The position numbers were made by a program, and so were the translations under genes. From a virus (Duplodnaviria; Caudoviricetes), in IMG/VR virus record IMGVR_UViG_3300028228_000176, positions 637 to 64,636 of that record: 64,000 bases of DNA; one strand, 5' to 3'. Numbering within the stretch: position 1 is the first letter of the stretch; every line of letters begins with the position of its first letter. The notes under the pieces were generated by a model. The model saw nothing but the letters and a program-made list of their open reading frames with translations, was not told the origin of the DNA and did no database searches. Below are positions 9,143 through 58,323 of the stretch, one piece after another.

Positions 9143-9145
9143 AAT

Positions 9146-25581: not shown

Positions 25582-25636
25582 TTTAATAATATTTTATCGT
25601 TATTAAATCTCACTAACCATATACTCAACGTTATGC
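25437..25636 (+). repeat. Long attC-like site (about 200 bp)
   Basis: GGCTAAC-atcg-GGTATAGTTA ... TAACCATATAC-tcaac-GTTATGC, the same architecture as the sites at 42-47 kb. Confidence 0.65.
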
Positions 25637-25862
25637 CTCATTATACTCATTCGGAAACCCATCTTCTAAAAGAATAGGCTTATTAGCGCACTCTTTCATT
25701 TTTTCTAACACCCAATATATACCTTCTATACTTTCAGCCCCTACGCTCACCCCATTTGCAGTGTAACCATTTGGTTTACCTTTTTATCATAGTAAACTTC
25801 GTGTATCTGAAAAACATTTCATCCCCATCTTTGTGCGCTAATACTCTGTGATTCCATTTCAT
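25631..25862 (-). CDS. Hypothetical cassette protein (MKWNHRVLAH...), one frameshift
   Basis: Translated by hand. The TAA stop lies in the GTTATGC core at 25630. Confidence 0.5.
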
Positions 25863-26025: not shown

Positions 26026-26962
26026 TTATTGATTAAAGATTATCCCTTTAAATATATGCTCAATTACATCTACTGTCCAGCCGTTTCCAAGCATTTTATA
26101 ACGTTGGCTATTGCTTACGTGGTTTGTGTAATTGTCTGGCACAGTTTGCAACCTCTCGCATTCAATAGGCGATAATTTTCTAAATCCATTTATAAAAACT
26201 GCGTAATTATCTTTTTGAACAGTTGTGATAGTGTTTGTTTTGCCATCGTATCTAATTTCTATTCTTTGTTTTGTTAAGCCTTTAGTTTTCATTTTTCCGT
26301 CTTGTCTTTTGCCAGCAACAATATAACGCCCACGCATTGCACCGCAAAAAACCAATTGCCTTCTACTTTTTTAAAGTATTGGTTAAGGTTTCCTCCTTTC
26401 GCATAATTAGCATCTATGCAATAAGACTTATTTCGGTCAACAATGCCGTTTTCAATAATATCTGCTAAATAAATTTCTTTATTTTTGGTGGTATTACGCT
26501 TGGTATGTTAGTCCAATAAAGCCTAACTCTATTTTGAGCAGAAACCAAAGAACTATTTATAATTACAGGTTCGCAACCTAAATAACTGCTAATAACATCT
26601 TGGTATTCCTTTTTCATTTTTACATTCTCCATAAGGAAATACTTTGGTTTCAATTCGTTTTTAAGCCTAACAAACTCAAAAAACAATTTACTTCTTTCAT
26701 CTTGGAAGTTCAGTTGTTTCCCTGCAAAACTAAACCCTTGACATGGGCTACCCCCAATTAGCAAATCAATTTCGTGGTTAAGCATTCCCTTGTTTACAAA
26801 CTCAACGCTTCCTAATTGTATAGTATTTGGATAGTTTTCCATAGTTACCTTTATTGCGTATTTATCTATCTCGCTTGCAAAATACTTATCTACTTTAATC
26901 CCTAATTTATCTAGGGCAATTTGTCCGCAACTCATTCCATCGAATAAACTTAATACATTCAT
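26026..26962 (-). CDS. C5-cytosine DNA methyltransferase (frameshifted; ORFs 26465-26962 and 26026-26355)
   Basis: Motifs LSLFDGMSCG, GGSPCQGFS, ENV, QNRVR and C-terminal YKMLGNGW. Confidence 0.85.
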
Positions 26963-37109: not shown

Positions 37110-37649
37110 TTAAAGTGTTGTTAATTTAGTTTCTACGTCTTTCGTTAAGGTATACTTTCCTTTGATGTCATCAATACTACCACCTTTTTTAATATACTCT
37201 TTAGCTTTGTTGAAGCTATCGCTATCTGACACTAAGGCTTTCTTAGGGGTTGATTTGTCGTGGGTGTTACTTGCGTCGCTGTCTGCTGTGTCGTCTATTA
37301 AAAATAGATTCCCAAGAGCATACTTCTTACCGTAACTTGAAGAGGAACCAAACTTCTGTGGCATCTGCATACCCTTTTGCTCAAGGTCAACGCCAACTAT
37401 ACTATTTGCGTGTATAGCATTCTCTCCATCTGAGATAGTGGCAGTCATTTCCATAATAGGGAATGGCTCTGTACTTAATAGCTTCTCTTTCACTGTAACT
37501 GTTACTCCTAATTCAATGAGGAAAGGCTTGGTAGCTTCTAGGATATCTTCTGCACTACGGAAGTAGTACTTACCGAAGGCGTTGAACCTACTCTTTTTTG
37601 ATTTGAATTGTGTCTGGATTATTGCCAGCTTGTCGTTAATTGTTTTCAT
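37110..37649 (-). CDS. ERF-family single-strand annealing protein
   Basis: Motifs FGKYYFRSAEDIL and GSSSSYGKKYALGNLFLIDD. Confidence 0.85.
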   Translation of the reverse strand: MKTINDKLAIIQTQFKSKKSRFNAFGKYYFRSAEDILEATKPFLIELGVTVTVKEKLLSTEPFPIMEMTATISDGENAIHANSIVGVDLEQKGMQMPQKFGSSSSYGKKYALGNLFLIDDTADSDASNTHDKSTPKKALVSDSDSFNKAKEYIKKGGSIDDIKGKYTLTKDVETKLTTL

Positions 37650-37662
37650 AGTGTTTATTTAT

Positions 37663-37693
37663 TTGTCACAAATATAGGTTTAATTTGTGACAA
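37663..37693 (-). promoter_or_regulatory. Promoter -7 box (TATATTTG on the - strand) inside an 11-bp inverted repeat
   Basis: ttgtcacaaat-N9-atttgtgacaa; matches the Bacteroidota TAnnTTTG consensus upstream of erf. Confidence 0.5.
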
Positions 37694-37717
37694 TTGTTGT
37701 TTAAAATAATAAATTAA

Positions 37718-37775
37718 TGGTTCAATTTTTTGAATGTTTCTTATAACATTGTTAGGTTTAATATTTTAAAAAAGC
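37718..37775 (+). other. attI-like recombination site, copy 1 (apparently empty)
   Basis: TGGTTCAATTTTTTGAATGTTTCTTATAAC-att-GTTAGGT; the 30 bp are identical to 41983-42012. Confidence 0.65.
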
Positions 37776-37796
37776 CCACCACTGTTATGTGCTTAC

Positions 37797-38766
37797 TCAT
37801 TCTCCACAATCTGAAAAAACTTCACAACTCTCTGTTTCGTCAAAAAGAGATTCTTGAAAATTAGTATCAATACTATCGTCTTTAACTATTTTATCAAACC
37901 CTTTACTCATTTCAATCATTTCTTTTACACTTACAAAGTTCCTAAAAAACACATTTTTATATTCTTCTGTTGGTACTTTTTCCATTTCATATCCTGTAAT
38001 AGTTTCTCCAAATTCATCTTTATATTCGTAATAAACTTTTTCAGGAACTCTACCATTAGGATTTCCGTATTTATTTTCAAGGTAATCTAAAAATTCAAAA
38101 TAATTAATATCATCTTTTACCATTTGCATCAACTTATTGTTACTCTTCTTATAACAAGCACCACAATTACCCTGATACCCTTTTAAAATCAATCTAAATT
38201 TTTGTTGATCCCAACCTAAAAATTTATATGCTTTTTTTGTCATTGGTTGCATATTTTTTTGAATTAAAGGGTAAACTAATCTTAATTCGTCTTTTTTTAG
38301 CGTTCATCCTATCTATTTCGTCAATTCTAATACCTAATGCTAAATAATATTTTTCCTTACCCCAAATACTTTTTGCATAGTTTTTAATAGGATTCATTTT
38401 TAATTCCCTTGTACAATGTAAACGAGAATGATTTGGTATTCCATACTTCTTTACAACTTCTTCAAAAGGTGTATCTGTTGTATTTTTCCAATCTGTATTT
38501 CTTGTAGCAGAATTATAATCAACTATTTTAAAACCTGTACTTTTTCTTTGATTATGGTAAACTTTGGCTTCAATCCATTTAATGTCCAACCCAAATTCTT
38601 TTTCGCATTTATGTACAAACTCTAAAGTTTCGTTACTTTCAACACCTGTGTTAGCAAAAACAAAAAGCATCTCATATTCGTTTTGCATTTTTTTATTTAA
38701 CCAATTCCCCATAAAAGCAGAAGTTTCTCCTCCGCTAAATGTAACTAATAATTTTTTCTTACTCAT
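37797..38766 (-). CDS. PAPS-reductase-family (PP-loop) protein, frameshifted into two ORFs
   Basis: Motifs FSGGETS, FANTG, CTRELK, LGIRIDE and GNCGAC. Confidence 0.75.
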
Positions 38767-38780
38767 ATCTTATATCTTTG

Positions 38781-38820
38781 TTCGTGCCTCACAACGCTGT
38801 TTATAGCCAAACCATTAGCT
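38781..38820 (+). repeat. Right half of a decayed attC-like site
   Basis: ttcgtgcctca...atagccaaaccATTAG resembles 46899-46936 (ttcgttcctca...atagccaaaccGTTAG). Confidence 0.5.
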
Positions 38821-38846
38821 ACAATGGGGCGAACCCGCATTTTTAT

Positions 38847-39602
38847 TTACAAATAATCTAATACTTGGTTGCTGTCTACATTTTCTACTAATGTATCTAC
38901 TGCTTGTTTCTTCAACTCCGAAACTCTAACGTGCCTACTCACACCTTGTATATCCATTATATCGGCTATCTGCAAGGCTGAGTGTTTATCACAATCCAAT
39001 CCATAAGACAACCTCAAGACTTCATACTCTCTATTATCAAGGTGCTTACTCATTAACCCTTTTAAATAAGCGTTAAGGAAAGCTATGTTATAAGGCTCAG
39101 AGTTGTCAATAATCTGCTGATACATTGTTTCTCCATCTTCATCTTGAGCTACATTATCGAGAGACAAGAATATAGAATTAAAAAACAACTGCACCATTTT
39201 TTTGTCATCAGGATTCTTTCGCATCTTATTTCGTTTCTCTTCAGGTATTCTCATAGAGCCACTATTCATATCAATCCTTCGTCTAATAGCACCCTTGATT
39301 CTTTTACTAAGAAAAGATTTTAAAGTTTTGTCGATGTCTTCTGACTCATATAATCTAACAAAGTCTACTCTATCTACTGCTCTAACTAAAGCCTCAGCAC
39401 CTATCTGTATGAGGTCGTTGATTGTTAGTATCCCAATAGCTTGTTCTGAACTTGCAAACTTCCTGGATAAGTTCTCCACTAACGGGAGGAATCTAACTAT
39501 TAATTCATCCCTACTATATTCAGCGTATGGCTTATCTTCTGGCATAGATGATTTAACATCATTCTTATACCGAACGTAACTCTCTACATTATACTTTTTC
39601 AT
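38847..39602 (-). CDS. Sigma70-family RNA polymerase sigma factor
   Basis: Region 2 (DLIQIGAEALVRAVD, RIKGAI) and region 4 (LDNREYEVLRLSYGL..IAD..VSELK). Confidence 0.8.
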   Translation of the reverse strand: MKKYNVESYVRYKNDVKSSMPEDKPYAEYSRDELIVRFLPLVENLSRKFASSEQAIGILTINDLIQIGAEALVRAVDRVDFVRLYESEDIDKTLKSFLSKRIKGAIRRRIDMNSGSMRIPEEKRNKMRKNPDDKKMVQLFFNSIFLSLDNVAQDEDGETMYQQIIDNSEPYNIAFLNAYLKGLMSKHLDNREYEVLRLSYGLDCDKHSALQIADIMDIQGVSRHVRVSELKKQAVDTLVENVDSNQVLDYL

Positions 39603-39629
39603 ATTTCATTGGTTAAATTACCAATGTGT

Positions 39630-40250
39630 TCATATTACATCATTGAGAGTGTCAATCTCATTCTTCAATTCATCTCCGATATTCCTTGCAATAGTTTTTC
39701 TGTTGCAAGATAGCATCGTGGCTATTCTCGTAATCGTTATCTTTTCATTCCCTTCGTTAATAGACAACATACAATCGTATATGTTATCTTTTGTTACCAC
39801 TGTACTTCTACCTATCACCGAGCCAACTATCCTTAGTTTTTCTACTTTAGTAAGGCCACACATTGGCTTAAATATTACTTTCCTAGACTTGTTTGGCGGC
39901 TGAGTTGTCATCTCTCGGTTCCCGATGTCTTCAATTGTAAACTCTATTAACGAACTTCTTAGGGCAAAGGTAGTAAAACCATTTGACTTATTACAGATAA
40001 ACTTTGCAATTGTATCAAATTTTTCTTGACCCATATTTTTATTTAAGTATCTAAGGACAAACAAGTGCCATCTAAGAGACTTTAGTGTATTGATTTTATT
40101 AGGGGTTGCAAATAGCTGGAAGCATTGCATCGTACCATCTTTATAGTACCATCCCCATTCATAAGATTGTGTCGGCTCATCTGTTGTTGGCAAGCTCCTA
40201 TATATAACTTGCCTTTTGTGCAAGTATTCTATTTTTCTTTCGTGCGACAT
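39630..40250 (-). CDS. DNA-binding protein with a C-terminal HTH (possible replication initiator or regulator); probable start MSHERK
   Basis: ITITRIATMLSCNRKTIARN helix-turn-helix. Confidence 0.55.
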   Translation of the reverse strand: MSHERKIEYLHKRQVIYRSLPTTDEPTQSYEWGWYYKDGTMQCFQLFATPNKINTLKSLRWHLFVLRYLNKNMGQEKFDTIAKFICNKSNGFTTFALRSSLIEFTIEDIGNREMTTQPPNKSRKVIFKPMCGLTKVEKLRIVGSVIGRSTVVTKDNIYDCMLSINEGNEKITITRIATMLSCNRKTIARNIGDELKNEIDTLNDVI

Positions 40251-40289
40251 TAGCTTGTTAATTAATATACTTAATAGCCTAATGTCACA
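40242..40289. promoter_or_regulatory. Dyad element, copy 1 (GTGCGACATTAG-N25-CTAATGTCAC)
   Basis: Also found at 48723 (inverted) and at 52468. Confidence 0.65.
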
Positions 40290-40432
40290 TCCGCAACAAG
40301 TGAAGCCGTTTGCTATATTTTTTAAATAAAAAAATGTTTGTTTCATTTACATTTAAATCAAGGGCATCGTTAAGTATGTTGTACTTCAAAAAGTATATCA
40401 TACTAGCGGTGTACCTTATGTGCCTTATAACT

Positions 40433-41039
40433 CTAAAAGTCTTCATCTATTCTACGTTTTAGTTCTTCAATAGTTTTCTTTAATGTGTCAGCCACTTCGT
40501 AATGCTCCAAGTCTTCTTGATGAAACAATTCCTTTTGCAAGTCTTTTATTTTCTGCAAGTAAATCTCTTTTTGAGATGGCTTCTCTGTTTCTTCTATTTC
40601 TTCTGGATGGAATACCACTTGTATCATATCCTCTTTTTCATGCTCTGACATTTGCTTAATAAAGGCATCGTCAATTTCCTGCTGTCTAAATAATAGTCTT
40701 TCCACTATCGACTCTAATAGTCTTCCCGCTATCATCTCTGTTAGCACTTCCATTTCTTTTTTTGTCATAGTTTTATTTATTAAAATTAGCATCTATTATT
40801 CTATGCAACTTGCCCGTCAGCTCTCTACTTCTCCTTAATGTTGGGTGCTTTAACGGATACCCTTCTCTATCTAGCAACAGGTCGTGTAATGCTTCTATTG
40901 TGGCTATATCTGAATCCAATATTGTAATATCGTCCAACCTCTCCGTTAAGTTCCTTCTACGTTCTGCATCACTGTGGCTACATACTATCTTTTTAAACGT
41001 ATATCGGTCTATTCTTTGTATAAATTCCAGTGCTGTCAT
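40433..41039 (-). CDS. Two hypothetical proteins (40433 to about 40768, and 40773-41039)
   Basis: Tandem - ORFs. The first has a UvrB/C-like coiled motif (EHYEVADTLKK). Confidence 0.5.
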
Positions 41040-41076
41040 ATCTTTAGTGCTTTGTTATTATTTAATTGTAATCTTT

Positions 41077-41730
41077 TTATTTTCTTATTGATACATAAGC
41101 TGCATCTATTAAATTCATTAGTGAACTCTTAAAAGCTATTGACGAAGACTTACCTCCAATACTCCATACATTCAACTCGCTAATAGTATACTCCCTATCG
41201 TAAGTTTTCCAATCGTATATCGTGTAGTAATAATCCCCAAATCTTACAATCCATTCAACGCTACTCTTCTCTCCTTCCTCAAACGTCTGCGTGGGCTGTC
41301 CTAGCGCCTCTACTAACTCAAAATACTTAACACCTCTTAGTGTATCAACCTTGCTGCTACCCTTCCACATATCGCTTGTAATTTCGTCCTGTAATATAGT
41401 CTTTATATTGAAAATATAATTATTGATATTACATAGCTCAGGGTTCGTTTCTACAATGGTTTCAATATCGTGTCTCATCTCTCTATCTGTCTCACACAAG
41501 TCTTTCATTTTTGAAATGTTATTTATCACTGAAGAATGGTTCCTACTAAGGTAAACACCCATCATTTTTAATGTTGACCTTGTGTATGTTCTTGCTAAGG
41601 TACAAAACATTTGCCTGGCTGTAACTAATTCTCTACTTCTGTTTGGCGATAGTACTTCGTTTTTATTAAGACCGTAGTATTTACATACTATTGTCATTAT
41701 GCTGTCTAATGATTCTAATTCTCTACTCAT
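41077..41730 (-). CDS. Protein with a DnaA C-terminal HTH-like domain fused to an unknown domain
   Basis: SRELVTARQMFCTLAR...LSRNHSSVI resembles DnaA domain IV. Confidence 0.65.
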   Translation of the reverse strand: MSRELESLDSIMTIVCKYYGLNKNEVLSPNRSRELVTARQMFCTLARTYTRSTLKMMGVYLSRNHSSVINNISKMKDLCETDREMRHDIETIVETNPELCNINNYIFNIKTILQDEITSDMWKGSSKVDTLRGVKYFELVEALGQPTQTFEEGEKSSVEWIVRFGDYYYTIYDWKTYDREYTISELNVWSIGGKSSSIAFKSSLMNLIDAAYVSIRK

Positions 41731-41745
41731 AATTTTGTTTTTATT

Positions 41746-41982
41746 TTAAAAAGGTAATTTGTTTTTCGTGTATCCATCATAATGAATCTTTATCCCGCAG
41801 AATAGGAAGTGATGCCTATTGTTTTTAGCTCCATTGAAAGATATAGAATGATGCTTTGCATATTTAGATGTTGTTTTTAATTCTAATTCTTGTTCAATTA
41901 AATGAACTAAGTTTTCTAATTCTCTAGGTGTTGGTTTGTGGTTACAAATGTCTATAATCACCGCCTTTATTGATTCTGTCAT
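41746..41982 (-). CDS. Hypothetical protein
   Basis: 78 aa; its ATG abuts the attI-like site. Confidence 0.45.
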   Translation of the reverse strand: MTESIKAVIIDICNHKPTPRELENLVHLIEQELELKTTSKYAKHHSISFNGAKNNRHHFLFCGIKIHYDGYTKNKLPF

Positions 41983-42022
41983 TGGTTCAATTTTTTGAAT
42001 GTTTCTTATAACGTTGTTACAG
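41983..42022 (+). other. attI-like site, copy 2, heading the seven-cassette array
   Basis: 30-bp motif followed by gtt and the core GTTACAG (predicted crossover G^TT at 42016/42017). Confidence 0.7.
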
Positions 42023-42028
42023 GCAATA

Positions 42029-42931
42029 CTACATTAGTCCTCCGAAAATGTGAGCAATTACATTTACAGTCCATCCATTGCCGAGCATCTTATACCTATC
42101 TGTATTTGATACTCCTTCTGTATATTTATCAGGTACGGTTTGTAATCTCTCACATTCAACAACTGTAAGTCTATGTATATTTTCATCTCTGTCTTTTGTG
42201 AAAGTAGATTTTTGTCCTTTGTGCATATTTGAAGTTAAGCAACTTGCTTTTCCATCAGCATACCACAACTGTTCTAATCTTGTTTTATTTCCAAATTTAC
42301 CAAGCAACCAGTTTGGGTAATTATTATGAAACATAGGTGTTTGTAAAATATCATATACTACTGTTTTATTCTCTTTTGGTAATTCATTTAAAGGAATATT
42401 AGTCCAATAAATTCTCGGTCTGTTGTGTGCTGAAAATAGATTTGAGTTTATTCGTATTGGCTCAACTCCCAACGCTTCTGTAATAATATCTTCCCACTCT
42501 TTTTTCATTACTACATTTTCAAGTAAAAAGTATCTTGGTTTTACTTCATTCAGAACTCTTACAAATTCCCAAAACAAACCACTTTTACCATCAAATCCTT
42601 TCCCATTTCCAAAAGAACTAAAACTTTGGCAAGGACTACCACCGAAAAGCAAATCTATTTTTGGCAAATCACTACCTTTTAATTCCGTAACGTTTCCAAT
42701 TTGTTTTGTGTTTGGAAAGTTTTTTTGTGTTATAAAAATTGCTTTCTCATCAATCTCCGAAGCAAAGTAGTTATTCACCTTTAACCCTGCTTTCTGCAAA
42801 GCTAATTGTCCACAACTCATCCCATCAAAAAGGGATAGTGCGTTAATCCCGTACTGCCTGTAACACGTGCTATAATCAATAGCGGATTCTGTACTATCCG
42901 AAAGTTTCTGCTGTTTATTATCTTTTGTCAT
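42029..42931 (-). CDS. Cassette 1: C5-cytosine DNA methyltransferase (probable start MTKDNK, inside the attC)
   Basis: Motifs LSLFDGMSCG, GGSPCQ, ENV and YKMLGNGW. Confidence 0.85.
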   Translation of the reverse strand: MTKDNKQQKLSDSTESAIDYSTCYRQYGINALSLFDGMSCGQLALQKAGLKVNNYFASEIDEKAIFITQKNFPNTKQIGNVTELKGSDLPKIDLLFGGSPCQSFSSFGNGKGFDGKSGLFWEFVRVLNEVKPRYFLLENVVMKKEWEDIITEALGVEPIRINSNLFSAHNRPRIYWTNIPLNELPKENKTVVYDILQTPMFHNNYPNWLLGKFGNKTRLEQLWYADGKASCLTSNMHKGQKSTFTKDRDENIHRLTVVECERLQTVPDKYTEGVSNTDRYKMLGNGWTVNVIAHIFGGLM

Positions 42932-42986
42932 AAATTTAAAGTTTTGTGTTATTAATCCGCTACTACTCATAGCACCATCGTTAGCG
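42858..42986 (+). repeat. attC-like site 1
   Basis: CTGTAAC-ac-GTGCTAT..TAGCGGATT ... AATCCGCTA..ATAGCAC-catc-GTTAGCG. Confidence 0.8.
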
Positions 42987-43316
42987 GTTATTAAGGTAGT
43001 CCCATAATTTACCACTATCAGAAAAATCAATATTCTTTCCTTTATCTGTAATCATTCCATCTTTATATTTTACTCCAAAATCCAATTCAAAACAAAAATA
43101 TTCAATCCAACTTTGACCGTGTTCGCAAAGTTCTAAGTCATTATTCTCAACTTGTAAAACTTTCATCAAAGCGTTATTTATAAGATGATTTTCGGGTAAT
43201 AAATTTGCTTCAAAAGCATTTGTAAATACTTCCGATAATTTTTTAGCAAATTCATTATCATATTCATATTGTTTTCTTAATGCTTCAATGCTTTCAATAA
43301 ATAATTCTCGTGTCAT
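42981..43316 (-). CDS. Cassette 2: hypothetical protein
   Basis: 111 aa; the TAA stop lies within the core GTTA. Confidence 0.7.
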   Translation of the reverse strand: MTRELFIESIEALRKQYEYDNEFAKKLSEVFTNAFEANLLPENHLINNALMKVLQVENNDLELCEHGQSWIEYFCFELDFGVKYKDGMITDKGKNIDFSDSGKLWDYLNNR

Positions 43317-43334
43317 AATTTTTAATTAAACAAC

Positions 43335-43430
43335 CGCTAACACACGGTATAGTTAAAAAGCCTATTAAAATTTGTATTTGAATTGCAAGGTAGTGGTTAG
43401 GCTTTCAAACCATACCGCAATTCGTTAGGT
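43335..43430 (+). repeat. attC-like site 2
   Basis: CGCTAAC-aca-CGGTAT..AAAGCCTA ... TAGGCTTT..ATACCG-caattc-GTTAGGT. Confidence 0.8.
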
Positions 43431-43985
43431 GTAATATTCACTAAGGCAAATGCTATTATCAACCTCATTGCCAAAAACCGCCCAGCCTTTTCGATCACGT
43501 CTTGCAAACATTTCCAGTCGGGGTTCTTCGCTTACCGTTTCAATTAAGTCTTGGAAAAATTCAGGCTTTTTGCTATGTCGTTTTTGCCTTTTGTGTTCCC
43601 ACCAAGTACTATCTATCCTTTTTACTTTCGGCATCTTACCACGCCTTGCAAGTATCAAAAACTCGGTCGTAGGGCAGTAAACCCCTCCTTGCCCTGTACC
43701 CATAGGTTTTTTGCACCAAGTTAATGTTTGGCAATACTTCAACCCCCACGCACTTAATACGGCAAAAGCATCAGGTAAATATTTTTGAGTAGTCCATAAG
43801 TAAACCTCACAGTTACCATCACAAAGGCTTTTTACTGGTAGTGCCTTTATATCTTCTACCGTCATCCATTCGTAAGGTAGTGGTGCAGGTTTATTTGCTT
43901 CTCCTTGCACCAAAGCCTTTTTACTTCCGCTACCCCAAATGCCGTATTTCCAAGGCGGGTCTATTACTATCGTTTTATATTTCAT
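43425..43985 (-). CDS. Cassette 3: MT-A70-family adenine methyltransferase
   Basis: Motifs IDPPW, YLWTT, HSKKP and LEMFAR..GW..FGNE. Confidence 0.85.
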   Translation of the reverse strand: MKYKTIVIDPPWKYGIWGSGSKKALVQGEANKPAPLPYEWMTVEDIKALPVKSLCDGNCEVYLWTTQKYLPDAFAVLSAWGLKYCQTLTWCKKPMGTGQGGVYCPTTEFLILARRGKMPKVKRIDSTWWEHKRQKRHSKKPEFFQDLIETVSEEPRLEMFARRDRKGWAVFGNEVDNSICLSEYYT

Positions 43986-44014
43986 CTTTCGTTATTTTAA
44001 TCCGTTCATACTAC

Positions 44015-44069
44015 ACCTAACACTGTATAAAAGCCATAGAAAAAACGGCTCATATACTAAACGTTAGTA
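44015..44069 (+). repeat. attC-like site 3
   Basis: ACCTAAC-act-GTATAaaAGCC..GGCTcaTATAC-taaac-GTTAGTA. Confidence 0.8.
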
Positions 44070-44817
44070 ACAATTATTTTTTTGCCCCACTCTTGCGTGA
44101 CCAATCTCTACGGCTTTTTCTGATATGTCGCAACCTATAAAATTTCTATTTAAGTCTTTGCAAACTTCTGCCGTTGTAAAAGAGCCACCGTAAAAATCAG
44201 CTACTAAATCACCTTTATTACTACTTGCTTTTATTATTCGTTCAAGTAGTGTTTTTGGCTTTTGTGTTGCGTATCCTGTATAGTCTTTGTGTTGTGAACT
44301 TAACATAGGTTTTAAATCATCCCACCAATCAATAGGTAAAGATTTGTCGTAATTATAAGTAACTCCGTTTAATACTTTTTATAAGAACCTCCGTTTTTGT
44401 TATCAATATAAAGCTCATCTAAATTAAATTTATACTCTTTAGTTTTAGAGTACCAAAATATATTGTCGTGCTTATTGCTAATACTTTTTTGCTTTTACCT
44501 CCGCTTCTGTAACACCAAATTATTTCATTCAAAATCTATCATAACCAAATACATCATCCAAAATACACCTTACCCAGTGGCTTATCTTTGTGTCCATTTG
44601 TAAATATATACTTCCAGTATCTTTTAAAATACGGTGCATTTCTTTTATTCTTGGTATGTAGTGTTCTTCTATTATTTCTCGTTTAGGTTTTAAAATCTTG
44701 GTAGTCTTTGAATTTTCTACCTGTTCCATAAAGTATATCGCAGTAAATTAAATCTACTGTACTATCTTTTATTTCTGCCATTAACTCTAAATTATCACTT
44801 AATCTTATATCAATCAT
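44064..44817 (-). CDS. Cassette 4: beta-class N6A/N4C DNA methyltransferase (frameshifted)
   Basis: Motifs VDLIYCDILY, LKDTGSIY, YATQKP and VADFYGGSFTT; the stop lies in the core GTTA. Confidence 0.75.
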
Positions 44818-44876
44818 CTTTATAAATATTTTAATTCGTACCTCATTAATTTGCCAACGCTCTGAAAAATAACAGT

Positions 44877-44932
44877 AACTAACAATGTATAAAAGCCATA
44901 GAAAAAACGGCTCTTATACCCAACCGTTAGCC
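44877..44932 (+). repeat. attC-like site 4 (interior nearly identical to site 3)
   Basis: AACTAAC-aat-GTATAAAAGCCATAGAAAAAACGGCTCTTATAC-ccaacc-GTTAGCC. Confidence 0.8.
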
Positions 44933-45571
44933 ACAAGCTGCTACATTATCGCTTTTAATGAAGTTTCCCCATTGTTCAGCCATAGCTTTTGCAATTCCGC
45001 TAAAAGTTTTACTGCTTTCCTTTTGGCTTATGTTCTTAAATTGATATTTCTGCCCTCGTTTTTTGCCCCCTGTATTACTTGGTAAGTACGGCTTATATTC
45101 GCTTACTATTTTGGTTGGGCTTAATAGTGGTAAATTTTTAATCCACAGCAGAGTTCTTTTACTATAAGGGTGTCCGTATTCATAAGGTTGCACCGCTTGG
45201 CTTTGTTTAGGCAATCCAACTACTTTTAACGATGTTGGGTTCTCAACAGCAATATAAGGTATAGGAGCGTTCAATAATTTCATAAACAAATCCTTCGCTT
45301 CCATTGCTTTATTAAATCTTTCTTGGCTTAAATTTCCTGCTGTTGGGTACATCCATCTTGCACCAGCTCTACTAATATAAGTGCAAGGTGGGTGCGCTAT
45401 CATAAGGTCATATTTACCACTATACGCTTCTACAACTGCATCACCTACAATATGCCATTCAGGTTTACCACGACTACATTCTTGCATATCGCAACTATAA
45501 GCCTCAAATCCTATTTCTCGGAAAGCCTTACAAACTTCTTGGCTCTCCTCACAAGCTATTAATATTTTCAT
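44927..45571 (-). CDS. Cassette 5: short cytosine-methyltransferase-like protein
   Basis: Motifs ILIACEES, AHPPCT, VENP, KRTLLW and GIAKAMAEQW; the stop lies in the core GTTA. Confidence 0.7.
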   Translation of the reverse strand: MKILIACEESQEVCKAFREIGFEAYSCDMQECSRGKPEWHIVGDAVVEAYSGKYDLMIAHPPCTYISRAGARWMYPTAGNLSQERFNKAMEAKDLFMKLLNAPIPYIAVENPTSLKVVGLPKQSQAVQPYEYGHPYSKRTLLWIKNLPLLSPTKIVSEYKPYLPSNTGGKKRGQKYQFKNISQKESSKTFSGIAKAMAEQWGNFIKSDNVAACG

Positions 45572-45609
45572 TCTATTTAATTTTAGTTCTTAATTTACCA
45601 CAGCCAGAT

Positions 45610-45672
45610 GGCTAACACGGTATATAAAACAGCTTCCTATCGTCAGCCGATTTCATATACAAACCGTTAGGC
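45610..45672 (+). repeat. attC-like site 5
   Basis: GGCTAAC-acg-GTATATAAAA ... TTTCATATAC-aaacc-GTTAGGC. Confidence 0.8.
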
Positions 45673-45712
45673 ACAATATTTTATTAATTTTTGCCAACGC
45701 TCTTTTGGTTTT

Positions 45713-46513
45713 TCAAACCAATTGTGGTATTTGCTCTCGTAAGAATAAATAAACCTCTTCCTGTGTTATATAAGGTGTAGAAATCACATTGCTTCTATCC
45801 CCGTAATAATCTTCAAATTTATCATTGAATATTTGTTTTATTGTTGGGATTAAAGTTTTATCTTCAATTACTATCTTATAGTTTCTTAATGTTTGTTTTT
45901 CATTAAGCACCTTCCACACCTTGCTCCCCATCCTGCATATCCTAAAATCTTCTTGCAATGGTAAATATTTTTTACTCCTTTTATCATCCGCAACAACTAA
46001 AATGCTATTTAATTTAAACTGTTTTCTTTTATTTAGCTTGCCACTTACTGGTCTTTTGTAAATATTCAAACAGCATCGTAATTCCCTGTCAGTATATACT
46101 CTATTCCCCAAATCTTCACTATGTATTAAATCAAACTTAAATAAAGAGCGTGTTTTGTTTAGTAGTTTTATGCTCCCAATAAAAGCTATGTAATCTCCTT
46201 GCTCAACTGCTTTATTGTAAAAACTTCTGAATAAGTTGCCACTATCACCAAATGGGGGGTTTCCAATAACACACCTACCTTTAAAGTATGGCAAATCTAA
46301 TTCAAGGTAGTTCTTTTGTTCAATGTTTTCTGCTTCTGGTTCAATATCAAATGCAAGGTAGTTGTTATCTAAATATGGTAAAAACACTCCTGCTCCTGCA
46401 CTTGGTTCAAGCCATTCAGTTATGTTTTCAACTCCAATTACTTCTTTTGTTTTCTTTACACAATACTCTGCTAAATCAGAAGGTGTGTAGTATTTGTCTA
46501 AATTTATTTTCAT
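45713..46513 (-). CDS. Cassette 6: gamma-class N6-adenine DNA methyltransferase
   Basis: Motifs YYTP, LEPSAGAG and GNPPF. Confidence 0.8.
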   Translation of the reverse strand: MKINLDKYYTPSDLAEYCVKKTKEVIGVENITEWLEPSAGAGVFLPYLDNNYLAFDIEPEAENIEQKNYLELDLPYFKGRCVIGNPPFGDSGNLFRSFYNKAVEQGDYIAFIGSIKLLNKTRSLFKFDLIHSEDLGNRVYTDRELRCCLNIYKRPVSGKLNKRKQFKLNSILVVADDKRSKKYLPLQEDFRICRMGSKVWKVLNEKQTLRNYKIVIEDKTLIPTIKQIFNDKFEDYYGDRSNVISTPYITQEEVYLFLREQIPQLV

Positions 46514-46568
46514 ATTCTTATATTATTAAATTAAAAAAATCCCTCCCTAAAAATTAAAAAATACAGAT

Positions 46569-46632
46569 GCCTAACACTGTGTCATACGTAAGTTTGTGAA
46601 AAACAAACCAACGCATACACTTAACGTTATGC
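46569..46632 (+). repeat. attC-like site 6
   Basis: GCCTAAC-act-GTGT..CGT..GTTTG/CAAAC..ACG..ACAC-ttaac-GTTATGC. Confidence 0.75.
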
Positions 46633-46636
46633 ACCA

Positions 46637-46846
46637 TTAAAGTGCTTCGAACTCAATTTTGTGGTTAAATGAATCACCATTACCGCTTGCATGAATTGCC
46701 CATAAATTACCTTGTTTATCCATACCTTCGGCATAAGTTCCGTCAGTTAGTGTAATATCAAGTTCACAATATTCATGTAACCACTCTTGCATAGTCTGCT
46801 CATTATCGTTGTGAGCATATTCTGTATTCCAAATAAATGTTTCCAT
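46637..46846 (-). CDS. Cassette 7: hypothetical protein (probable start METFIW)
   Basis: Acidic 69-aa ORF between terminal inverted repeats that match at 14 of 15 bp. Confidence 0.65.
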   Translation of the reverse strand: METFIWNTEYAHNDNEQTMQEWLHEYCELDITLTDGTYAEGMDKQGNLWAIHASGNGDSFNHKIEFEAL

Positions 46847-46871
46847 AGTTAAATTAATTAAAATTAACGGT

Positions 46872-46938
46872 GCATAACAACACCTATAAATCATATTTTT
46901 CGTTCCTCAAAATCCGCTTCATAGCCAAACCGTTAGGT
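46872..46938 (+). repeat. attC-like site 7 (end of the array)
   Basis: GCATAAC-aacac-CTATAAA ... TTCATAG-ccaaacc-GTTAGGT. Confidence 0.7.
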
Positions 46939-46996
46939 GTAATATTAAAAAAGGCACTGTGCTGTGCCAAATAATACCTTGTTTTGTGTTTATTTA

Positions 46997-47308
46997 TTAA
47001 TATTTGTTTCCAAGTTGAACCATTGATTCATCCCTTCCATGTAAGCCCTTTCTTTTCTCTCCCGTATACATCAAGTCTCCATTGTGAACCAAGTTCGTTA
47101 AAGCTCTCCTAATGGATGTTATTGGTGTTTTTAGGAACGCATCAAGAGTTCCTAAGACAGACGCAGATGTAGTAAACATTTTCCCCTTTGTTGTTAAAGC
47201 CGATTGAGCGTAATTCATAGCTTCCATTATCACCTGCTTTTGAGTTAATGCTTTCTTTTTGTATTCCTTTAACTTTTCTCCGCTTTCGTTTGTTGTGTTA
47301 TAATACAT
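46997..47308 (-). CDS. Putative winged-helix DNA-binding protein
   Basis: PITSIRRALTNLV helix followed by a beta-wing. Confidence 0.5.
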   Translation of the reverse strand: MYYNTTNESGEKLKEYKKKALTQKQVIMEAMNYAQSALTTKGKMFTTSASVLGTLDAFLKTPITSIRRALTNLVHNGDLMYTGEKRKGLHGRDESMVQLGNKY

Positions 47309-47476
47309 AGTTATATATTTTTAATTTGTTTAATTGCTTCAGACCTTAATTCGTCTGCTGAAGTTTTACCGTTTAATTTTTCATAAGAGTGTATCCAATC
47401 CAGGACTTTAAAAACTTGGTCGTGACTTTCACAAATTCTTATCTTATTAACGATGTTGTTGTATTCTATTTGATTC

Positions 47477-47734
47477 CTACCTCTTCGCATTGTCTATGTT
47501 TTCGTTAATAACTTCCGTTAGTTCTTCGTAATTAACGCAAGACAAAAAAGACTTTGCGTACAATTCAACTAAATCAAAATCCTCAGTTTTGTTTTTAAAA
47601 AGAGATTCTCTAGTAATTTGCTGAATGTCGTTTGAATTTACTTTGTCTTTAAATTCTCGAAACCTTAGTATGTCAGTCCATACGCACCACGTTTCGTAAT
47701 TAAGGTGCTCGATGTTAGCTCTTACTTCTTCCAT
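47477..47734 (-). CDS. Hypothetical protein
   Basis: 85-aa ORF. Confidence 0.5.
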   Translation of the reverse strand: MEEVRANIEHLNYETWCVWTDILRFREFKDKVNSNDIQQITRESLFKNKTEDFDLVELYAKSFLSCVNYEELTEVINENIDNAKR

Positions 47735-47837
47735 AATGTTTATTTATTAGGTTTTAATGTGTTTATCTTTGGTAAATGTAAGCATTTTATATTAAATAAG
47801 ATGTATATATTTACATTAATGTGTTCATAGTGTTATT

Positions 47838-48056
47838 TTAAACTCGGCAGCCTTTATTGGTTGTCGGGTTTTTTTGTGGTTTAATTTTTTGAATGTTTCT
47901 TATAACATTGTTGTATTCCATAATAATTTTTTTCGCCTTCAACACGTGCTCACTTAATACGTCTTGTATGTAGTTTTTTAAGTCTTTATTTGCTTTAACC
48001 GCTAATATCTTTAACGGTTGCACATCTTCTATTTTTATATCTATAAGTTTTTTCAT
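47838..48056 (-). CDS. Small ribbon-helix-helix-like protein that reads through attI-like copy 3
   Basis: MKKLIDI strand followed by LKILAVK..LKNYIQDVL helices. Confidence 0.45.
   Translation of the reverse strand: MKKLIDIKIEDVQPLKILAVKANKDLKNYIQDVLSEHVLKAKKIIMEYNNVIRNIQKIKPQKNPTTNKGCRV
47841..47876 (+). terminator. + strand terminator-like hairpin directly before attI-like copy 3
   Basis: aactcggcagcc/ggttgtcgggtt (G-U pairs form on the + RNA) followed by a T-tract. Confidence 0.5.
47877..47916 (+). other. attI-like site, copy 3
   Basis: 29/30 identity to the motif, followed by att-GTTGTAT. Confidence 0.6.
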
Positions 48057-48307
48057 AATCTAAAGTTTAATCCTAATCTTAAATCTTCGTTTGCTTTTTT
48101 AATATCTTCTAATTGTGCTTTTTTTGTTTTGTAAACTTTTACTAATGCACCAAAAACTTTTACAACTTTATTTTTTAATAAGAACTTATTTTTTAATTCG
48201 TATGCTTCATCTTCGTTTTTAGTTACTAATAAAACTTTTTTATAAGTGTTGTTTACTACTATTGTAAAACCTTCTTTTCTTAAATCTTGTGCTTCTTGAA
48301 TTGTCAT
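48053..48307 (-). CDS. Hypothetical protein (probable start MTIQEA) with its own TATATTTG promoter box near 48340
   Basis: Overlaps the next gene; caaatata lies upstream on the + strand. Confidence 0.5.
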   Translation of the reverse strand: MTIQEAQDLRKEGFTIVVNNTYKKVLLVTKNEDEAYELKNKFLLKNKVVKVFGALVKVYKTKKAQLEDIKKANEDLRLGLNFRL

Positions 48308-56784: not shown

Positions 56785-58323
56785 ATGTCTAACGGAATCG
56801 TTAAGAATCTAAACTTCGGAGACGAAGGTAAAAATAAAGTGTTTGAGGGTATCTCAAAGTTAACACAAGCCGTTAGTTCCACATTAGGAGCTAGCGGTAA
56901 GTGTGTAATGCTAGAGGACGGCTCAGGCAAACCATTAATTACAAAGGATGGTGTAACAGTGGCTAATGCAGTTATACTCTTAGACCCAGTAGAAAATATG
57001 GGTGCAACGCTGTTAAAAGAAGCGGCAAGGCAAACAGTTATTGAAGCAGGCGACGGAACAACAACAGCTACGGTATTAGCACACGCAATACTAGAAGAGG
57101 CTTTTAAAAACAAAAACTATAACTCAAGAGAGATTCGCAATGGTATAAATTCTGCCGTTGACAAAGTAGTTACATACTTAGAAAGTATCTCACATAGCGT
57201 CACTGGTTCTATGTTAACTGAAGTTGCTACAATATCATCTAACAATGACGTAGAGCTTGGAGCTTTAATTGCTAAGGCTTTTGAAGACGTTGGCGAGAAT
57301 GGTGTAGTTAGTATGGAAATATCTAACGACGAAGAAACATCAGTAGACATTGTAGATGGCGCTTCTATTGATAAGGGGTTAAAGAATGACCACTTTATTA
57401 ATAACAAAGAAAAAGGTACTTGCGAACTTAACAATCCACTTGTATTAATTGTAGAAAGCAAAATACCTAATGTAAGAAAAGTTCAAGGAATTTTAGAATA
57501 CGTTATTAAGAATAACAAAGAATTACTTATTATTGGAGAAGCAGATGAACAGTTAGTGACTGCTTTATCAATGAATGTAAATAAAGGTAACATCAAAGCC
57601 AATATTATTGATTCCCCAGACTTTGGAATTAATAGGAAAGAAACGCTTCAAGATTTTGCTGCCTTAACTGGCGCTACAGTGATTAACGAAGACTTGGGTG
57701 ACGATATAGACCTAATTGATGTTAGCCACTTAGGTACGTGCTTAAAAGCCGTTACAACAAGAGAAGATACTGTCATTCAAGTTGAAGGCACTAACGATGC
57801 TGTTGTTGGTTTAATTAAGCAAATAAAAAAGCAGATTAAAGAAACAAAGATTAACGGAAAGAAGCACCAATTAGAAAGAAGGCTATCAAGGCTTGCTGGA
57901 AAGGTTGGTGTAATAAAAGTTGGGGCTAATTCAGAGGTTGAACTCAAAGAAAAAAGCGATAGAGTTGAAGATGCAATATGTGCAACTAAAGCAGCTATAA
58001 AAGAAGGTATTGTTCCAGGAGGAGGAATTGCTTTACTCAACGCTAGTACGATTGTTTTAGGCTTAAATGCAGGTGAAGACATTTTGCTAAAAGCTATTCA
58101 GTCTCCATTCAATGTTATTATGAAAAATGCAGGGATGGAAGACTTTGAAAAACCAACCGAAGAAGGTGTAGGATATGATGTAGTAACAGGTAAAATGGTG
58201 GAGATGATTAAGTTTGGAATTATAGACCCACTACTCGTAACTAAAAGTGCTTTGAAGAATGCTGCATCTGTAGCCAATACTATTCTTGCAACTGATTGTG
58301 TAATTAATAATCTAAGAGCATGA
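56785..58323 (+). CDS. groEL: Chaperonin GroEL
   Basis: Motifs ITKDGVTVA, AGDGTTTATVLA, GIVPGGG and GIIDP. Confidence 0.95.
   Translation: MSNGIVKNLNFGDEGKNKVFEGISKLTQAVSSTLGASGKCVMLEDGSGKPLITKDGVTVANAVILLDPVENMGATLLKEAARQTVIEAGDGTTTATVLAHAILEEAFKNKNYNSREIRNGINSAVDKVVTYLESISHSVTGSMLTEVATISSNNDVELGALIAKAFEDVGENGVVSMEISNDEETSVDIVDGASIDKGLKNDHFINNKEKGTCELNNPLVLIVESKIPNVRKVQGILEYVIKNNKELLIIGEADEQLVTALSMNVNKGNIKANIIDSPDFGINRKETLQDFAALTGATVINEDLGDDIDLIDVSHLGTCLKAVTTREDTVIQVEGTNDAVVGLIKQIKKQIKETKINGKKHQLERRLSRLAGKVGVIKVGANSEVELKEKSDRVEDAICATKAAIKEGIVPGGGIALLNASTIVLGLNAGEDILLKAIQSPFNVIMKNAGMEDFEKPTEEGVGYDVVTGKMVEMIKFGIIDPLLVTKSALKNAASVANTILATDCVINNLRA

What the first reader, a model, noticed from the sequence alone, without database searches (positions are those of the whole stretch)
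41983..46938. Phage-borne integron-like array of seven single-gene cassettes
Seen in sequence: seven imperfect hairpins of 55-129 bp (starting 42858, 43335, 44015, 44877, 45610, 46569, 46872), each ..TAAC-[stem with unpaired bases]-..CGTTA, separate single genes. Each cassette's closing box is the reverse complement of the sequence at its own start rather than of the box across the hairpin: C1 GTTACAGGCAaTAC/GTAcTGCCTGTAAC; C2 GTTAGCGGTT/AACCGCTAAC; C3 GTTAGGTGTA/TACACCTAAC; C4 GTTAGTaAC/GTaACTAAC; C5 GTTAGCCA/TGGCTAAC; C6 GTTAGGCA/TGCCTAAC; C7 GTTATGCACCaTTAA/TTAAcGGTGCATAAC. Established: this is the signature of integron cassettes, which circularise and integrate at G^TT so that R'' and R' pair only in the circle. 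Inference: the phage gains, loses and reorders accessory genes as cassettes. attC-like sites in phages have been noted computationally before. A full array with attI-like sites and antisense phage genes may be undescribed, but this needs a literature check.
Basis: partly seen in the sequence, partly recalled or inferred. Interest (0 to 1): 0.95.

Follow-up and report, generated by a model that had tools for sequence, protein, structure and literature searches.

The report
Phage methyltransferase gene-cassette array
A virulent salt-lake phage keeps seven small genes, five of them DNA methyltransferases that probably shield it from host restriction enzymes, as swappable integron-style cassettes that wild relatives gain and lose at one four-base site, although the phage has no recombinase of its own.

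Summary
All seven hairpins exist, all on the + strand. Each cassette's closing box pairs with its own start, not with the box across the hairpin.

The integron-like reading is supported by natural variation. A 99%-identical phage contig lacks cassettes 1-5, with the junction inside GTTA. It also carries one extra cassette inserted exactly at GTTA of a second copy of a 37-nt dock. Cassette 5 plus its hairpin is 99.6% identical in an otherwise unrelated phage locus. Contigs of salt-lake metagenomes show further junctions at the same boxes.

Genes are antisense to the site's top strand in 7 of 7 cassettes. The complete phage genome encodes no tyrosine recombinase. The same hairpin family lies beside a 280-aa Xer-like recombinase that lacks the IntI insert, both in Bacteroidota chromosomes and in other phages.

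The kind is already in print: Qi et al. 2023 described phage attC clusters, including two methyltransferase cassettes in Polaribacter phage P12002L, and one of its two tested sites recombined with attI1 under IntI1. This scan has also reported the same system before on other DNA. I class this array as a new variant of a known kind.

The parts
37718..37768 (+). Dock A, an attI-like 37-nt motif ending ..TTCTTATAACATT|GTTAGG. It holds no cassette in the window.
   Evidence: Motif copy found. L004 has a roughly 740-bp cassette (218-aa methyltransferase plus hairpin) inserted exactly at GTTAGG here. Contigs of runs X8 and X17 diverge into other cassettes right after 37756/37762.
41983..42019 (+). 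Dock B, the attI-like motif at the head of the array, with crossover core GTTA at 42016-42019.
   Evidence: L004 and contigs of X2 and X17 join 42015 to 45666. Contigs of X2 (2) and X8 (1) continue with other sequence right after 42019. L109 has the same dock (91% identical) followed by different cassettes. Its geometry, an 8-nt box ending AAC, 3 nt, then G|TTAGG, resembles the attI1 simple site read from R100.
42017..42980 (+). Cassette C1. The gene lies on the - strand (42029-42930 or -42969) and encodes a C5 cytosine DNA methyltransferase. Hairpin hp1 spans 42855-42987.
   Evidence: PF00145 at 1.3e-44; phrog_116. Own-box match 9 of 10. hp1 scores 22 bits and was not in any training set. There is no ATG, GTG or TTG between the closing box and the catalytic motif, so the start codon lies inside hp1 (read).
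42981..43424 (+). Cassette C2. The gene is 42981-43316 on the - strand, 111 aa, function unknown. Hairpin hp2 spans 43332-43433.
   Evidence: phrog_28377 only; no Pfam family. Own-box match 8 of 10. The stop codon TAA is the complement of the TTA in the core.
43425..44063 (+). Cassette C3. The gene is 43425-43985 on the - strand and encodes an MT-A70 adenine methyltransferase. Hairpin hp3 spans 44012-44072.
   Evidence: PF05063 at 4.5e-22; phrog_359. Own-box match 9 of 10. Contigs of X2, X8 and X17 join 44061 directly to 46931, which leaves out C4-C7.
44064..44926 (+). Cassette C4. It holds an N6/N4 methyltransferase gene on the - strand that is broken into three ORF pieces (44064-44306, 44529-44729, 44683-44817). 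Hairpin hp4 spans 44874-44935.
   Evidence: PF01555 pieces. An intact homologue sits in Cellulophaga phage phi12:1, flanked by a different but again self-complementary box pair and a hairpin at its 5' side. Contigs show indel variants at 44076 and 44692.
44927..45666 (+). Cassette C5. The gene is 44927-45571 on the - strand, 214 aa, a methyltransferase by PHROG. Hairpin hp5 spans 45607-45675.
   Evidence: phrog_757 at 2.3e-50. Window 44921-45677 is 99.6% identical to L005, and nothing else of that 20.6-kb locus matches the window. In L005-L009 the left break is at G|TTAGCCAC in 5 of 5 loci.
45667..46626 (+). Cassette C6. The gene is 45713-46513 on the - strand, 266 aa, with an N-terminal methyltransferase domain. 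Hairpin hp6 spans 46566-46633.
   Evidence: phrog_5172 and phrog_799 over residues 1-121. The first 122 nt (45666-45787) are shared with a different 117-aa gene in L004.
46627..46932 (+). Cassette C7. It holds a small gene at 46637-46846 on the - strand, 69 aa, function unknown. Hairpin hp7 spans 46869-46941.
   Evidence: No family found. Own-box match 9 of 10. hp7 scores 48 bits.
46932..46968 (+). Right half of the original dock: GTTAGGTGTAATATT followed by the intrinsic terminator of the upstream - strand gene.
   Evidence: Terminator-like site at 46968-46953 on the - strand. It has the same layout as the right side of empty dock A. Its first 15 nt equal the start of C3.
47877..47912 (+). 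Dock C, a third copy of the motif, ending GTTG, with no cassette. It lies inside a 72-aa ORF.

Best explanation
This is an integron-like gene-cassette array in a virulent phage of Bacteroidota. Each cassette is one gene plus a folding recombination site that lies at the gene's 5' side.

Shown: cassettes differ between wild genomes by whole units, and the breaks fall inside GTTA.

Inferred: a cassette leaves as a circle in which its closing box pairs with its own first bases. It re-enters at G|TT of a 37-nt dock or of another cassette's site. The reaction is site-specific and is carried out by a tyrosine recombinase supplied in trans by the host or a co-infecting phage. The most likely enzyme is the 280-aa Xer-like recombinase without the IntI insert that heads arrays of the same site family elsewhere.

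The genes are antisense to the site's top strand, so they read with the phage's early genes towards the dock. Five of the seven encode DNA methyltransferases, one of them broken. By inference from those families, the array is a changeable kit against host restriction.
For: - Precise unit-wise differences between genomes. L004 lacks C1-C5 and has a single cassette inserted at dock A, both with junctions inside GTTA/GTTAGG. C5 plus hp5 is 99.6% identical in the otherwise unrelated locus L005. Contig joints 42015>45666 and 44061>46931 share only 4 and 6 nt, and other cassettes follow 42019 and 37756/37762.
- Own-box complementarity far above chance, and better folding of the circle form in 7 of 7 cassettes.
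- Stem covariation. A homologous gene in phi12:1 has both end boxes changed together.
- Orientation. The spacer asymmetry is the same as in aadA1 attC, and the dock resembles the attI1 simple site. R2 hits aadA1 attC on its top strand only.
- Link between recombinase and site family. R2 sites lie within 10 kb of 14 of 20 recombinase loci in Bacteroidota genomes, against 0 of 15 control loci and 0 of 20 loci of TIGR02249-type integrases. In 80 viral loci that encode the recombinase there are 109 sites in 35 loci, all on the strand opposite to the recombinase gene and 108 of 109 upstream of it.
- The recombinase lacks 44 residues where IntI1 has its insert.
- Published: one of the two tested P12002L sites recombined with attI1 under IntI1 (PMC9892861, section 3.4 read).
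Against: - No recombinase is encoded in the complete genome, nor in the records of 5 close cassette-sharing loci (0 of 5), so the enzyme and the timing are inferred.
- No circle junction was seen. Only contigs could be laid, and most joints have short sides of 24-30 nt at 92% likeness, a class the tool warns about.
- Folding z-scores of the single sites are weak.
- Strict RYYYAAC and GTTRRRY cores are met by only 2 of 7 and 3 of 8 boxes (read).
- In L007 the C5 gene carries a different hairpin, and in L008 none. Strict gene-plus-site inheritance does not predict either.
- The host is unknown, so it is not shown that it has the recombinase.
- Methyltransferase activity and protection are untested, and C4 is broken.
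Confidence: 0.72

Rival explanations
1. It is a true integron attC cluster (CALIN) served by a classical integron integrase with the IntI insert, supplied by the host.
For: IntI1 recombined one of the two tested attC sites of the related phage P12002L with attI1 (PMC9892861, section 3.4). Ninety of 301 sampled Bacteroidota genomes have a match over the curated cut-off of TIGR02249. The site layout and the dock resemble aadA1 attC and attI1.
Against: None of 20 such integrase loci has a site of this family within 10 kb, against 14 of 20 loci of the Xer-like recombinase. R2 may miss other attC types, since it scores aadA1 attC at only 16 bits. In viral contigs the arrays are headed by the insert-less recombinase.
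Confidence: 0.15
2. The hairpins are regulatory stem-loops (terminators, RNA-processing sites, or promoter-carrying modules like those recalled from T4-type phages). Genes are shuffled by the phage's own Erf/exonuclease recombination at short homologies.
For: The phage encodes an Erf-like annealing protein and an exonuclease next to dock A, and a Holliday-junction resolvase. All genes are co-transcribed on the strand that would carry the hairpins as RNA. hp4 passes a terminator-like scan. hp3, hp4 and the L004 hairpin are near-identical and could serve as homology.
Against: Only 1 of the 7 hairpins is terminator-like. Junctions share only 4-6 nt, and annealing proteins need longer homology (general knowledge). 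Own-box complementarity, and boxes that change together at both ends of a gene, are not explained. The same sites sit at the head of arrays beside a tyrosine recombinase.
Confidence: 0.08
3. The pattern is due to chance, or to assembly chimeras at repeats.
For: The records are metagenome assemblies. Docks and some hairpins are repeats at which assemblers break, and joints have short sides.
Against: L004 and L005 are separate assemblies that span the junctions with kilobases on both sides. The box statistics are against chance. The same architecture is present in isolated, sequenced phages: phi12:1, P12002L and mumin6-1.
Confidence: 0.02

Closest known systems
Clusters of attC sites lacking an integrase (CALINs) in virulent phages, especially Polaribacter phage P12002L (Qi et al. 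2023, Front Microbiol, PMC9892861; abstract, section 3.4 and passages read)
   Same: Both are virulent phages of a marine Bacteroidota host with methyltransferase genes separated by attC-type hairpins and no integrase. My model finds three sites of the same family in that phage's methyltransferase region (L002). One P12002L site was active with IntI1.
   Different: That paper reports two sites there, said to point in divergent directions. In the text I read it describes no dock in these virulent phages, no antisense rule and no natural cassette turnover. Here there are seven cassettes, three dock copies and unit-wise differences between wild genomes. The coordinates of the tested sites are in supplements I could not see, so their identity with my hits is inferred.
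Classical integrons and sedentary chromosomal integrons (IntI, attI, attC cassettes); example read here: In2 of plasmid R100
   Same: Single-gene cassettes; a crossover in G|TT; a closing box that pairs with the cassette's own start; a hairpin with unequal spacers; an attI-like simple site; stop codons inside the core.
   Different: There is no IntI. Genes are antisense to the site in 7 of 7 cassettes here and 47 of 49 intervals in other phage arrays, against 26 of 26 sense in Bacteroidota chromosomal arrays. There are several docks in one genome, the cores are relaxed, and the associated recombinase lacks the IntI insert.
Promoter-early stem-loop (PeSL) modules of T4-type phages
   Same: Small accessory genes in hyperplastic phage regions are bounded by repeated stem-loops and shuffled as units.
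   Different: Those are recalled as promoter-plus-terminator modules recombined through sequence homology. Here the shared sequence at junctions is 4-6 nt, the boxes are cassette-specific, and a tyrosine recombinase family goes with the sites.
Orphan DNA methyltransferases of phages (cited in PMC9892861: Murphy et al. 2013; not read)
   Same: Methyltransferases without a partner endonuclease, thought to protect phage DNA from host restriction.
   Different: Here they are packaged as mobile cassettes and stacked: five in this array, and four more in the relative L004 (labelled methyltransferases from motifs read by eye, no family search run).

Membership tests
integron attC site | Inverted core boxes R'' (RYYYAAC) and R' (GTTRRRY) | tested here: inconclusive
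   AAC and GTT are kept in 35-36 of 36 distinct sites. The strict 7-mers are met by only 2 of 7 R'' boxes and 3 of 8 R' boxes (read). The working core is YTAAC / GTTAG.
integron attC site | Imperfect hairpin with inner L boxes, an unpaired spacer and unequal arms that set the strand | tested here: met
   The fold pattern is TAAC, 3 nt, stem, loop, stem, 5-6 nt, GTTA. The inner stem covaries. The 3' spacer is longer than the 5' spacer, as in aadA1 attC read from R100.
integron attC site | Crossover at G|TT, so that the closing box matches the cassette's own first bases | tested here: met
   Own-box matches are 9, 8, 9, 7, 5, 4, 9 of 10 against a null mean of 2.73. Natural junctions lie inside GTTA. 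The exact phosphodiester bond cannot be resolved within the 4-6 shared bases.
integron attC site | Detected by an attC covariance model (IntegronFinder, HattCI) | not testable with these tools
   Rfam gave no match in the window, and I do not know whether it holds an attC model. In the reverse direction, my model hits aadA1 attC on its top strand at 16.1 bits, E 0.067 in 6 kb. The site in the relative P12002L was called by HattCI plus Infernal (PMC9892861).
integron attC site | Recombined by an integron integrase | not testable with these tools
   Published only for one site of P12002L with IntI1 (PMC9892861, section 3.4). Nothing has been tested for this phage.
complete integron | Adjacent intI gene with the IntI-specific insert | tested here: not met
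   No PF00589 match and no match to recombinase profile A3 in the complete 64.6-kb genome.
complete integron | Cassette genes in sense to attC, read from a promoter at the attI end | tested here: not met
   Seven of 7 genes are antisense to the site's model strand.
CALIN (attC cluster without integrase) | Two or more attC sites close together and no intI in the replicon | tested here: met
   Seven sites lie within 4.1 kb and there is no recombinase. This holds only if the sites are accepted as attC.
Insert-less Xer-like recombinase arrays of Bacteroidota and their phages (no published name found) | Sites of the R2 family in arrays headed by a roughly 280-aa recombinase lacking the IntI insert | tested here: inconclusive
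   The site family is met, but the recombinase is absent here. The association elsewhere is 14 of 20 bacterial loci against 0 of 15 controls, and 35 of 80 viral loci with 108 of 109 sites upstream and all divergent.
intrinsic terminators | G+C-rich stem followed by a T run | tested here: not met
   Only hp4 of the 7 hairpins passes the scan. The clear terminator lies outside the array at 46953-46968.

The most novel reading that the evidence does not exclude
Virulent phages of Bacteroidota share a common pool of mirror-image gene cassettes, mostly anti-restriction methyltransferases. These are exchanged at fixed docks during infection by an insert-less Xer-type recombinase supplied in trans. 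If so, folded-site cassette recombination does not need the IntI-specific domain, and integron-like evolution also operates in lytic viruses, on a cassette pool separate from the sense-oriented chromosomal pool of their hosts.
Probability: 0.45. Interest if true: 0.85.

Novelty: new variant of a known kind. Interest (0 to 1): 0.62.

Why it matters
Integrons are taken to be bacterial devices that depend on an integrase with a special insert. This array shows the same cassette logic working in nature inside a lytic phage: whole cassettes differ between near-identical genomes, and one cassette is shared almost unchanged with an unrelated phage.

The cargo is mostly DNA methyltransferases. The array therefore gives a concrete route by which phages could re-equip themselves against changing host restriction systems.

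The link to a recombinase without the IntI insert, if confirmed at the bench, would question whether that insert is needed for folded-site recombination. The three docks, the seven sites and the natural variants found here provide ready substrates and predicted junctions for such a test.

Tried and rejected
- Rfam gave no family in the window at gathering thresholds.
- Single-site folding z-scores were too weak to argue from.
hp2 appeared at 23 bits in a later R1 search, and both appeared with the second model, R2.
- The dock motif as an exact pattern found only L004's record and L109 in viral contigs, so docks of this sequence are rare. Whether the motif is also a promoter for the phage's sigma factor was not resolved; the sigma-70-type scan found no more promoter-like sites than shuffles (18 against 23.9).
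- I considered whether the motif is conserved as coding sequence. It lies in an open frame at all three copies, but at different positions of different ORFs, so I read it as a DNA element.
- A scan of 151 Bacteroidota genomes with R2 found sites in only 5. Only 26 candidates per genome were scored, so this is no measure of prevalence.
- Tyrosine recombinases in records that carry homologues of the C5 gene: 0 of 5 and 7 of 48 (377-445 aa open frames). Two of the 50 loci sent were not held and were not searched, and I did not check the distance of the hits to any array.
- Reads: 20 runs from 18 studies hold the stretch, all as contigs. No raw reads were available, so circles, strand and ends could not be examined. 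Low depth over the cassettes relative to the flanks is suggestive only, because the depth is one figure per contig.
- Literature searches found no paper describing docks, antisense cassettes or an insert-less recombinase for this system. Supplements were closed, so the site coordinates in Qi et al. and the taxon tables in Cury et al. were not seen.
- Complex prediction, structure prediction, the search for homologous proteins and the atlas were not used.

Full report
WHAT IS THERE

The window is almost all of a complete 64.6-kb virus record with direct terminal repeats. Structural genes lie on the + strand in the first part. A long run of early and replication genes lies on the - strand.

Between 41983 and 46941, seven genes on the - strand are separated by seven imperfect hairpins. 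On the + strand each hairpin reads YTAAC, 3 nt, stem, loop, stem, 5-6 nt, (C)GTTAG.

Five of the seven genes encode DNA methyltransferases:
- C1: C5 cytosine methyltransferase, PF00145.
- C3: MT-A70, PF05063.
- C4: N6/N4 methyltransferase, PF01555, broken into three ORF pieces.
- C5: phrog_757.
- C6: N-terminal methyltransferase domain.

C2 (111 aa) and C7 (69 aa) have no known function.

IS IT MORE THAN CHANCE?

I built a covariance model, R1, from 5 window sites and 6 sites of other phages. A second model, R2, was built from 37 hits of R1. With filters off, R2 recovers all seven sites, all on the + strand, at 22-65.6 bits. The best hit elsewhere in the 64 kb scores 20.3 bits. hp1 was in neither training set.

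The inner stem covaries. Over 36 distinct sites, 91.3% of cells are paired against 79.8% in shuffles, and 40 cells changed on both sides against 15.1. Pairing falls to 19-45% when partners are slid. That alignment is fitted to the model.

In the 10 nt beyond GTTA, a cassette's start matches the reverse complement of its own closing box at 9, 8, 9, 7, 5, 4, 9 positions. It matches the box across the hairpin at only 3, 5, 3, 3, 3, 6, 2. The mean for 2037 other GTTA..TAAC pairs in the window is 2.73. When each site is joined in silico to its own cassette start, it folds better in 7 of 7 cases, by 1.6-8.4 kcal/mol.

NATURAL VARIATION

L004 is a 17.4-kb viral contig that is about 99% identical to the flanks. 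It differs from the window by whole cassettes.
- After dock B it runs straight into C6. The junction reads ..TTATAACGTT|GTTA|GGCAC, so C1-C5 are absent.
- At a second copy of the dock (window 37718-37768, empty in the window) it carries one extra cassette. This is a 218-aa methyltransferase gene closed by its own box and a hairpin, inserted exactly at GTTAGG.
- It replaces most of C6 and all of C7 by another small gene with a hairpin like hp3/hp4.
- It holds a fourth dock with two further methyltransferase cassettes in an extra 1.9 kb.

C5 together with hp5 (window 44921-45677) is 99.6% identical in L005, a 20.6-kb locus of a 73.7-kb phage record that shares nothing else with the window. Four more loci carry the same gene at 87-92% identity. 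In 5 of 5 loci the left break is at G|TTAGCCAC. Two of them do not fit neatly: L007 has a different hairpin after the closing box, and L008 has none.

Twenty public runs from 18 studies, mostly labelled salt-lake metagenomes, hold the stretch, all as contigs. I laid four of them on 37500-48200.
- Joint 42015>45666 appears in X2 and X17, with 4 shared bases.
- Joint 44061>46931 appears in X2, X8 and X17, with 6 shared bases.
- A form without C5 appears in X1.
- Other sequence follows directly behind 42019 and behind 37756/37762.

These joints have short sides (24-30 nt) at 92% likeness, so I treat them as agreeing with L004 rather than as independent proof.

The same architecture is present in isolated phages: Cellulophaga phage phi12:1, Polaribacter phage P12002L and Flavobacterium phage mumin6-1. 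In phi12:1 the homologue of the C4 gene is alignable up to the boxes, and both boxes differ together.

ORIENTATION

Box complementarity alone is symmetric and cannot tell which hairpin belongs to which gene. Four observations set the + strand as the top strand, with the hairpin belonging to the gene on its left.
- The single-cassette insert in L004 carries its hairpin on the right.
- hp5, not hp4, travels with the C5 gene.
- In aadA1 attC, read from plasmid R100, the 3' spacer (6 nt) is longer than the 5' spacer (5 nt). Here the figures are 5 and 3.
- R2 hits aadA1 attC only on its top strand, weakly at 16.1 bits, E 0.067.

The dock (..CTTATAAC, 3 nt, G|TTAGG) resembles the attI1 simple site of R100 (..CCCTAAAAC AAA G|TTAAAC).

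It follows that the genes are antisense to their sites, and the hairpin lies at each gene's 5' side. For C1 the start codon lies inside hp1. In C2-C5 the stop codon TAA is the complement of the TTA of the core, so both signals move with the cassette.

WHO RECOMBINES?

The phage has no tyrosine recombinase by Pfam or by a dedicated profile. It does encode an Erf-like annealing protein, an exonuclease, a resolvase and a sigma factor.

Earlier notes of this scan pointed to a Xer-like recombinase, and I tested that lead.

One exact hairpin match in a Saprospiraceae MAG gave a handle on the phylum. In genome G122 an array of at least 12 sites of the family, about 137 nt each, lies next to a divergent 280-aa recombinase. 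That recombinase scores below the cut-offs of XerA/integron-integrase (219 against 220 bits), TIGR02249 (203 against 265), XerD and XerC. It aligns with IntI1 at 28% identity, with a 44-residue gap where IntI1 has its insert.

Homologues at E <= 1e-45 occur in 110 of 301 sampled Bacteroidota genomes. R2 sites lie within 10 kb as follows:

| Loci tested | Loci with R2 sites |
|---|---|
| Xer-like recombinase loci | 14 of 20 (33 sites) |
| Control loci 300 kb away | 0 of 15 |
| TIGR02249-type integrase loci | 0 of 20 |

Integrases that pass the TIGR02249 cut-off are present in 90 of 301 of these genomes.

In viral contigs, 439 stretches encode relatives of the recombinase. In the best 80 loci there are 109 R2 sites in 35 loci, all on the strand opposite to the recombinase gene, and 108 of 109 upstream of it.

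Gene orientation splits cleanly. Genes are sense in 26 of 26 intervals in bacterial arrays. They are antisense in 47 of 49 intervals in phage arrays headed by the recombinase and in 7 of 7 here.

WHAT IS KNOWN

Qi et al. 2023 (PMC9892861; abstract, section 3.4 and passages read) reported attC clusters without integrase in 17 phages. One of them is P12002L, with two methyltransferase cassettes, and one of its two tested sites recombined with attI1 under IntI1.

Cury et al. 2016 (PMC4889954, passages) argue that recombinases lacking the IntI C-terminal domain do not run integrons. Smyshlyaev et al. 2021 (PMC8138268, passage) note that the insert is not fully conserved in their integron-like subgroup.

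My four searches found no description of docks in phage genomes, of the antisense rule, or of the insert-less recombinase with such arrays. Supplements were closed.

VERDICT

The kind, a phage attC cluster carrying methyltransferases, is published, and this scan has met the same system on other DNA.

This window adds a clean natural experiment: cassette gain, loss and transfer at GTTA, three docks, and the mirror-image gene orientation. The enzyme, the circle intermediate and the protective function remain inferred.

Noticed in passing
window 25615-25640 and 26026-26962: A second C5 methyltransferase gene on the - strand is split into 109-aa and 165-aa ORFs (phrog_116 for the latter). About 400 bp to its left lies what looks like the right half of a hairpin site (..CATATAC TCAAC GTTATGCC) with no left half. 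It may be a decayed cassette outside the array.
   Followed up: partly
window 27375-30143: The 922-aa ribonucleotide reductase has HNH-endonuclease matches at residues 433-555. This suggests an inserted homing-endonuclease or intein-like segment.
   Followed up: no
window 38214-38292: Contigs of all four runs laid lack single bases at 38214, 38217, 38232 and 38292 relative to the window. The overlapping ORFs 37797-38252 and 38224-38766 (PAPS-reductase-like) may be one gene broken by errors in this record.
   Followed up: no
window 44846-44858, 45691-45703; L001 about 2724: The motif TTGCCAACGCTCT recurs between the closing box and the start codon of the C4 gene, inside the 3' part of C6, and (as TTGCCTACGCTCT) upstream of the homologue in phi12:1. 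It overlaps the best promoter-like match, TTGGCA-18-TAAAAT on the - strand. It may be a promoter carried by the cassette.
   Followed up: partly
window 45666-45787 and L004 (reverse-complement coordinates 10938-11059): The first 122 nt of cassette C6 are 99% identical to the start of a different cassette in L004 whose 117-aa gene ends there. In the window the 266-aa gene stops at 45713. C6 looks chimeric.
   Followed up: partly
L004, reverse-complement coordinates 8102-9990, against window 41069-41082: An extra 1.9 kb with a fourth dock and two methyltransferase cassettes is bounded by a direct repeat of about 13 nt (TAATCTTTTTATTT), not by GTT boxes. Not all gene-content differences use the core.
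   Followed up: partly
Bacteroidota genomes G055-G353 (sample of 301): Ninety of 301 genomes have a full-length match over the curated cut-off of the integron-integrase model TIGR02249, yet none of the 20 such loci examined has a site of the phage hairpin family within 10 kb. What sites these integrases serve was not examined.
   Followed up: partly
window 56785-58323 and 38847-39602: The phage encodes a GroEL-like chaperonin (phrog_5725, 2e-133) and a sigma-factor-like protein (phrog_351).
   Followed up: no
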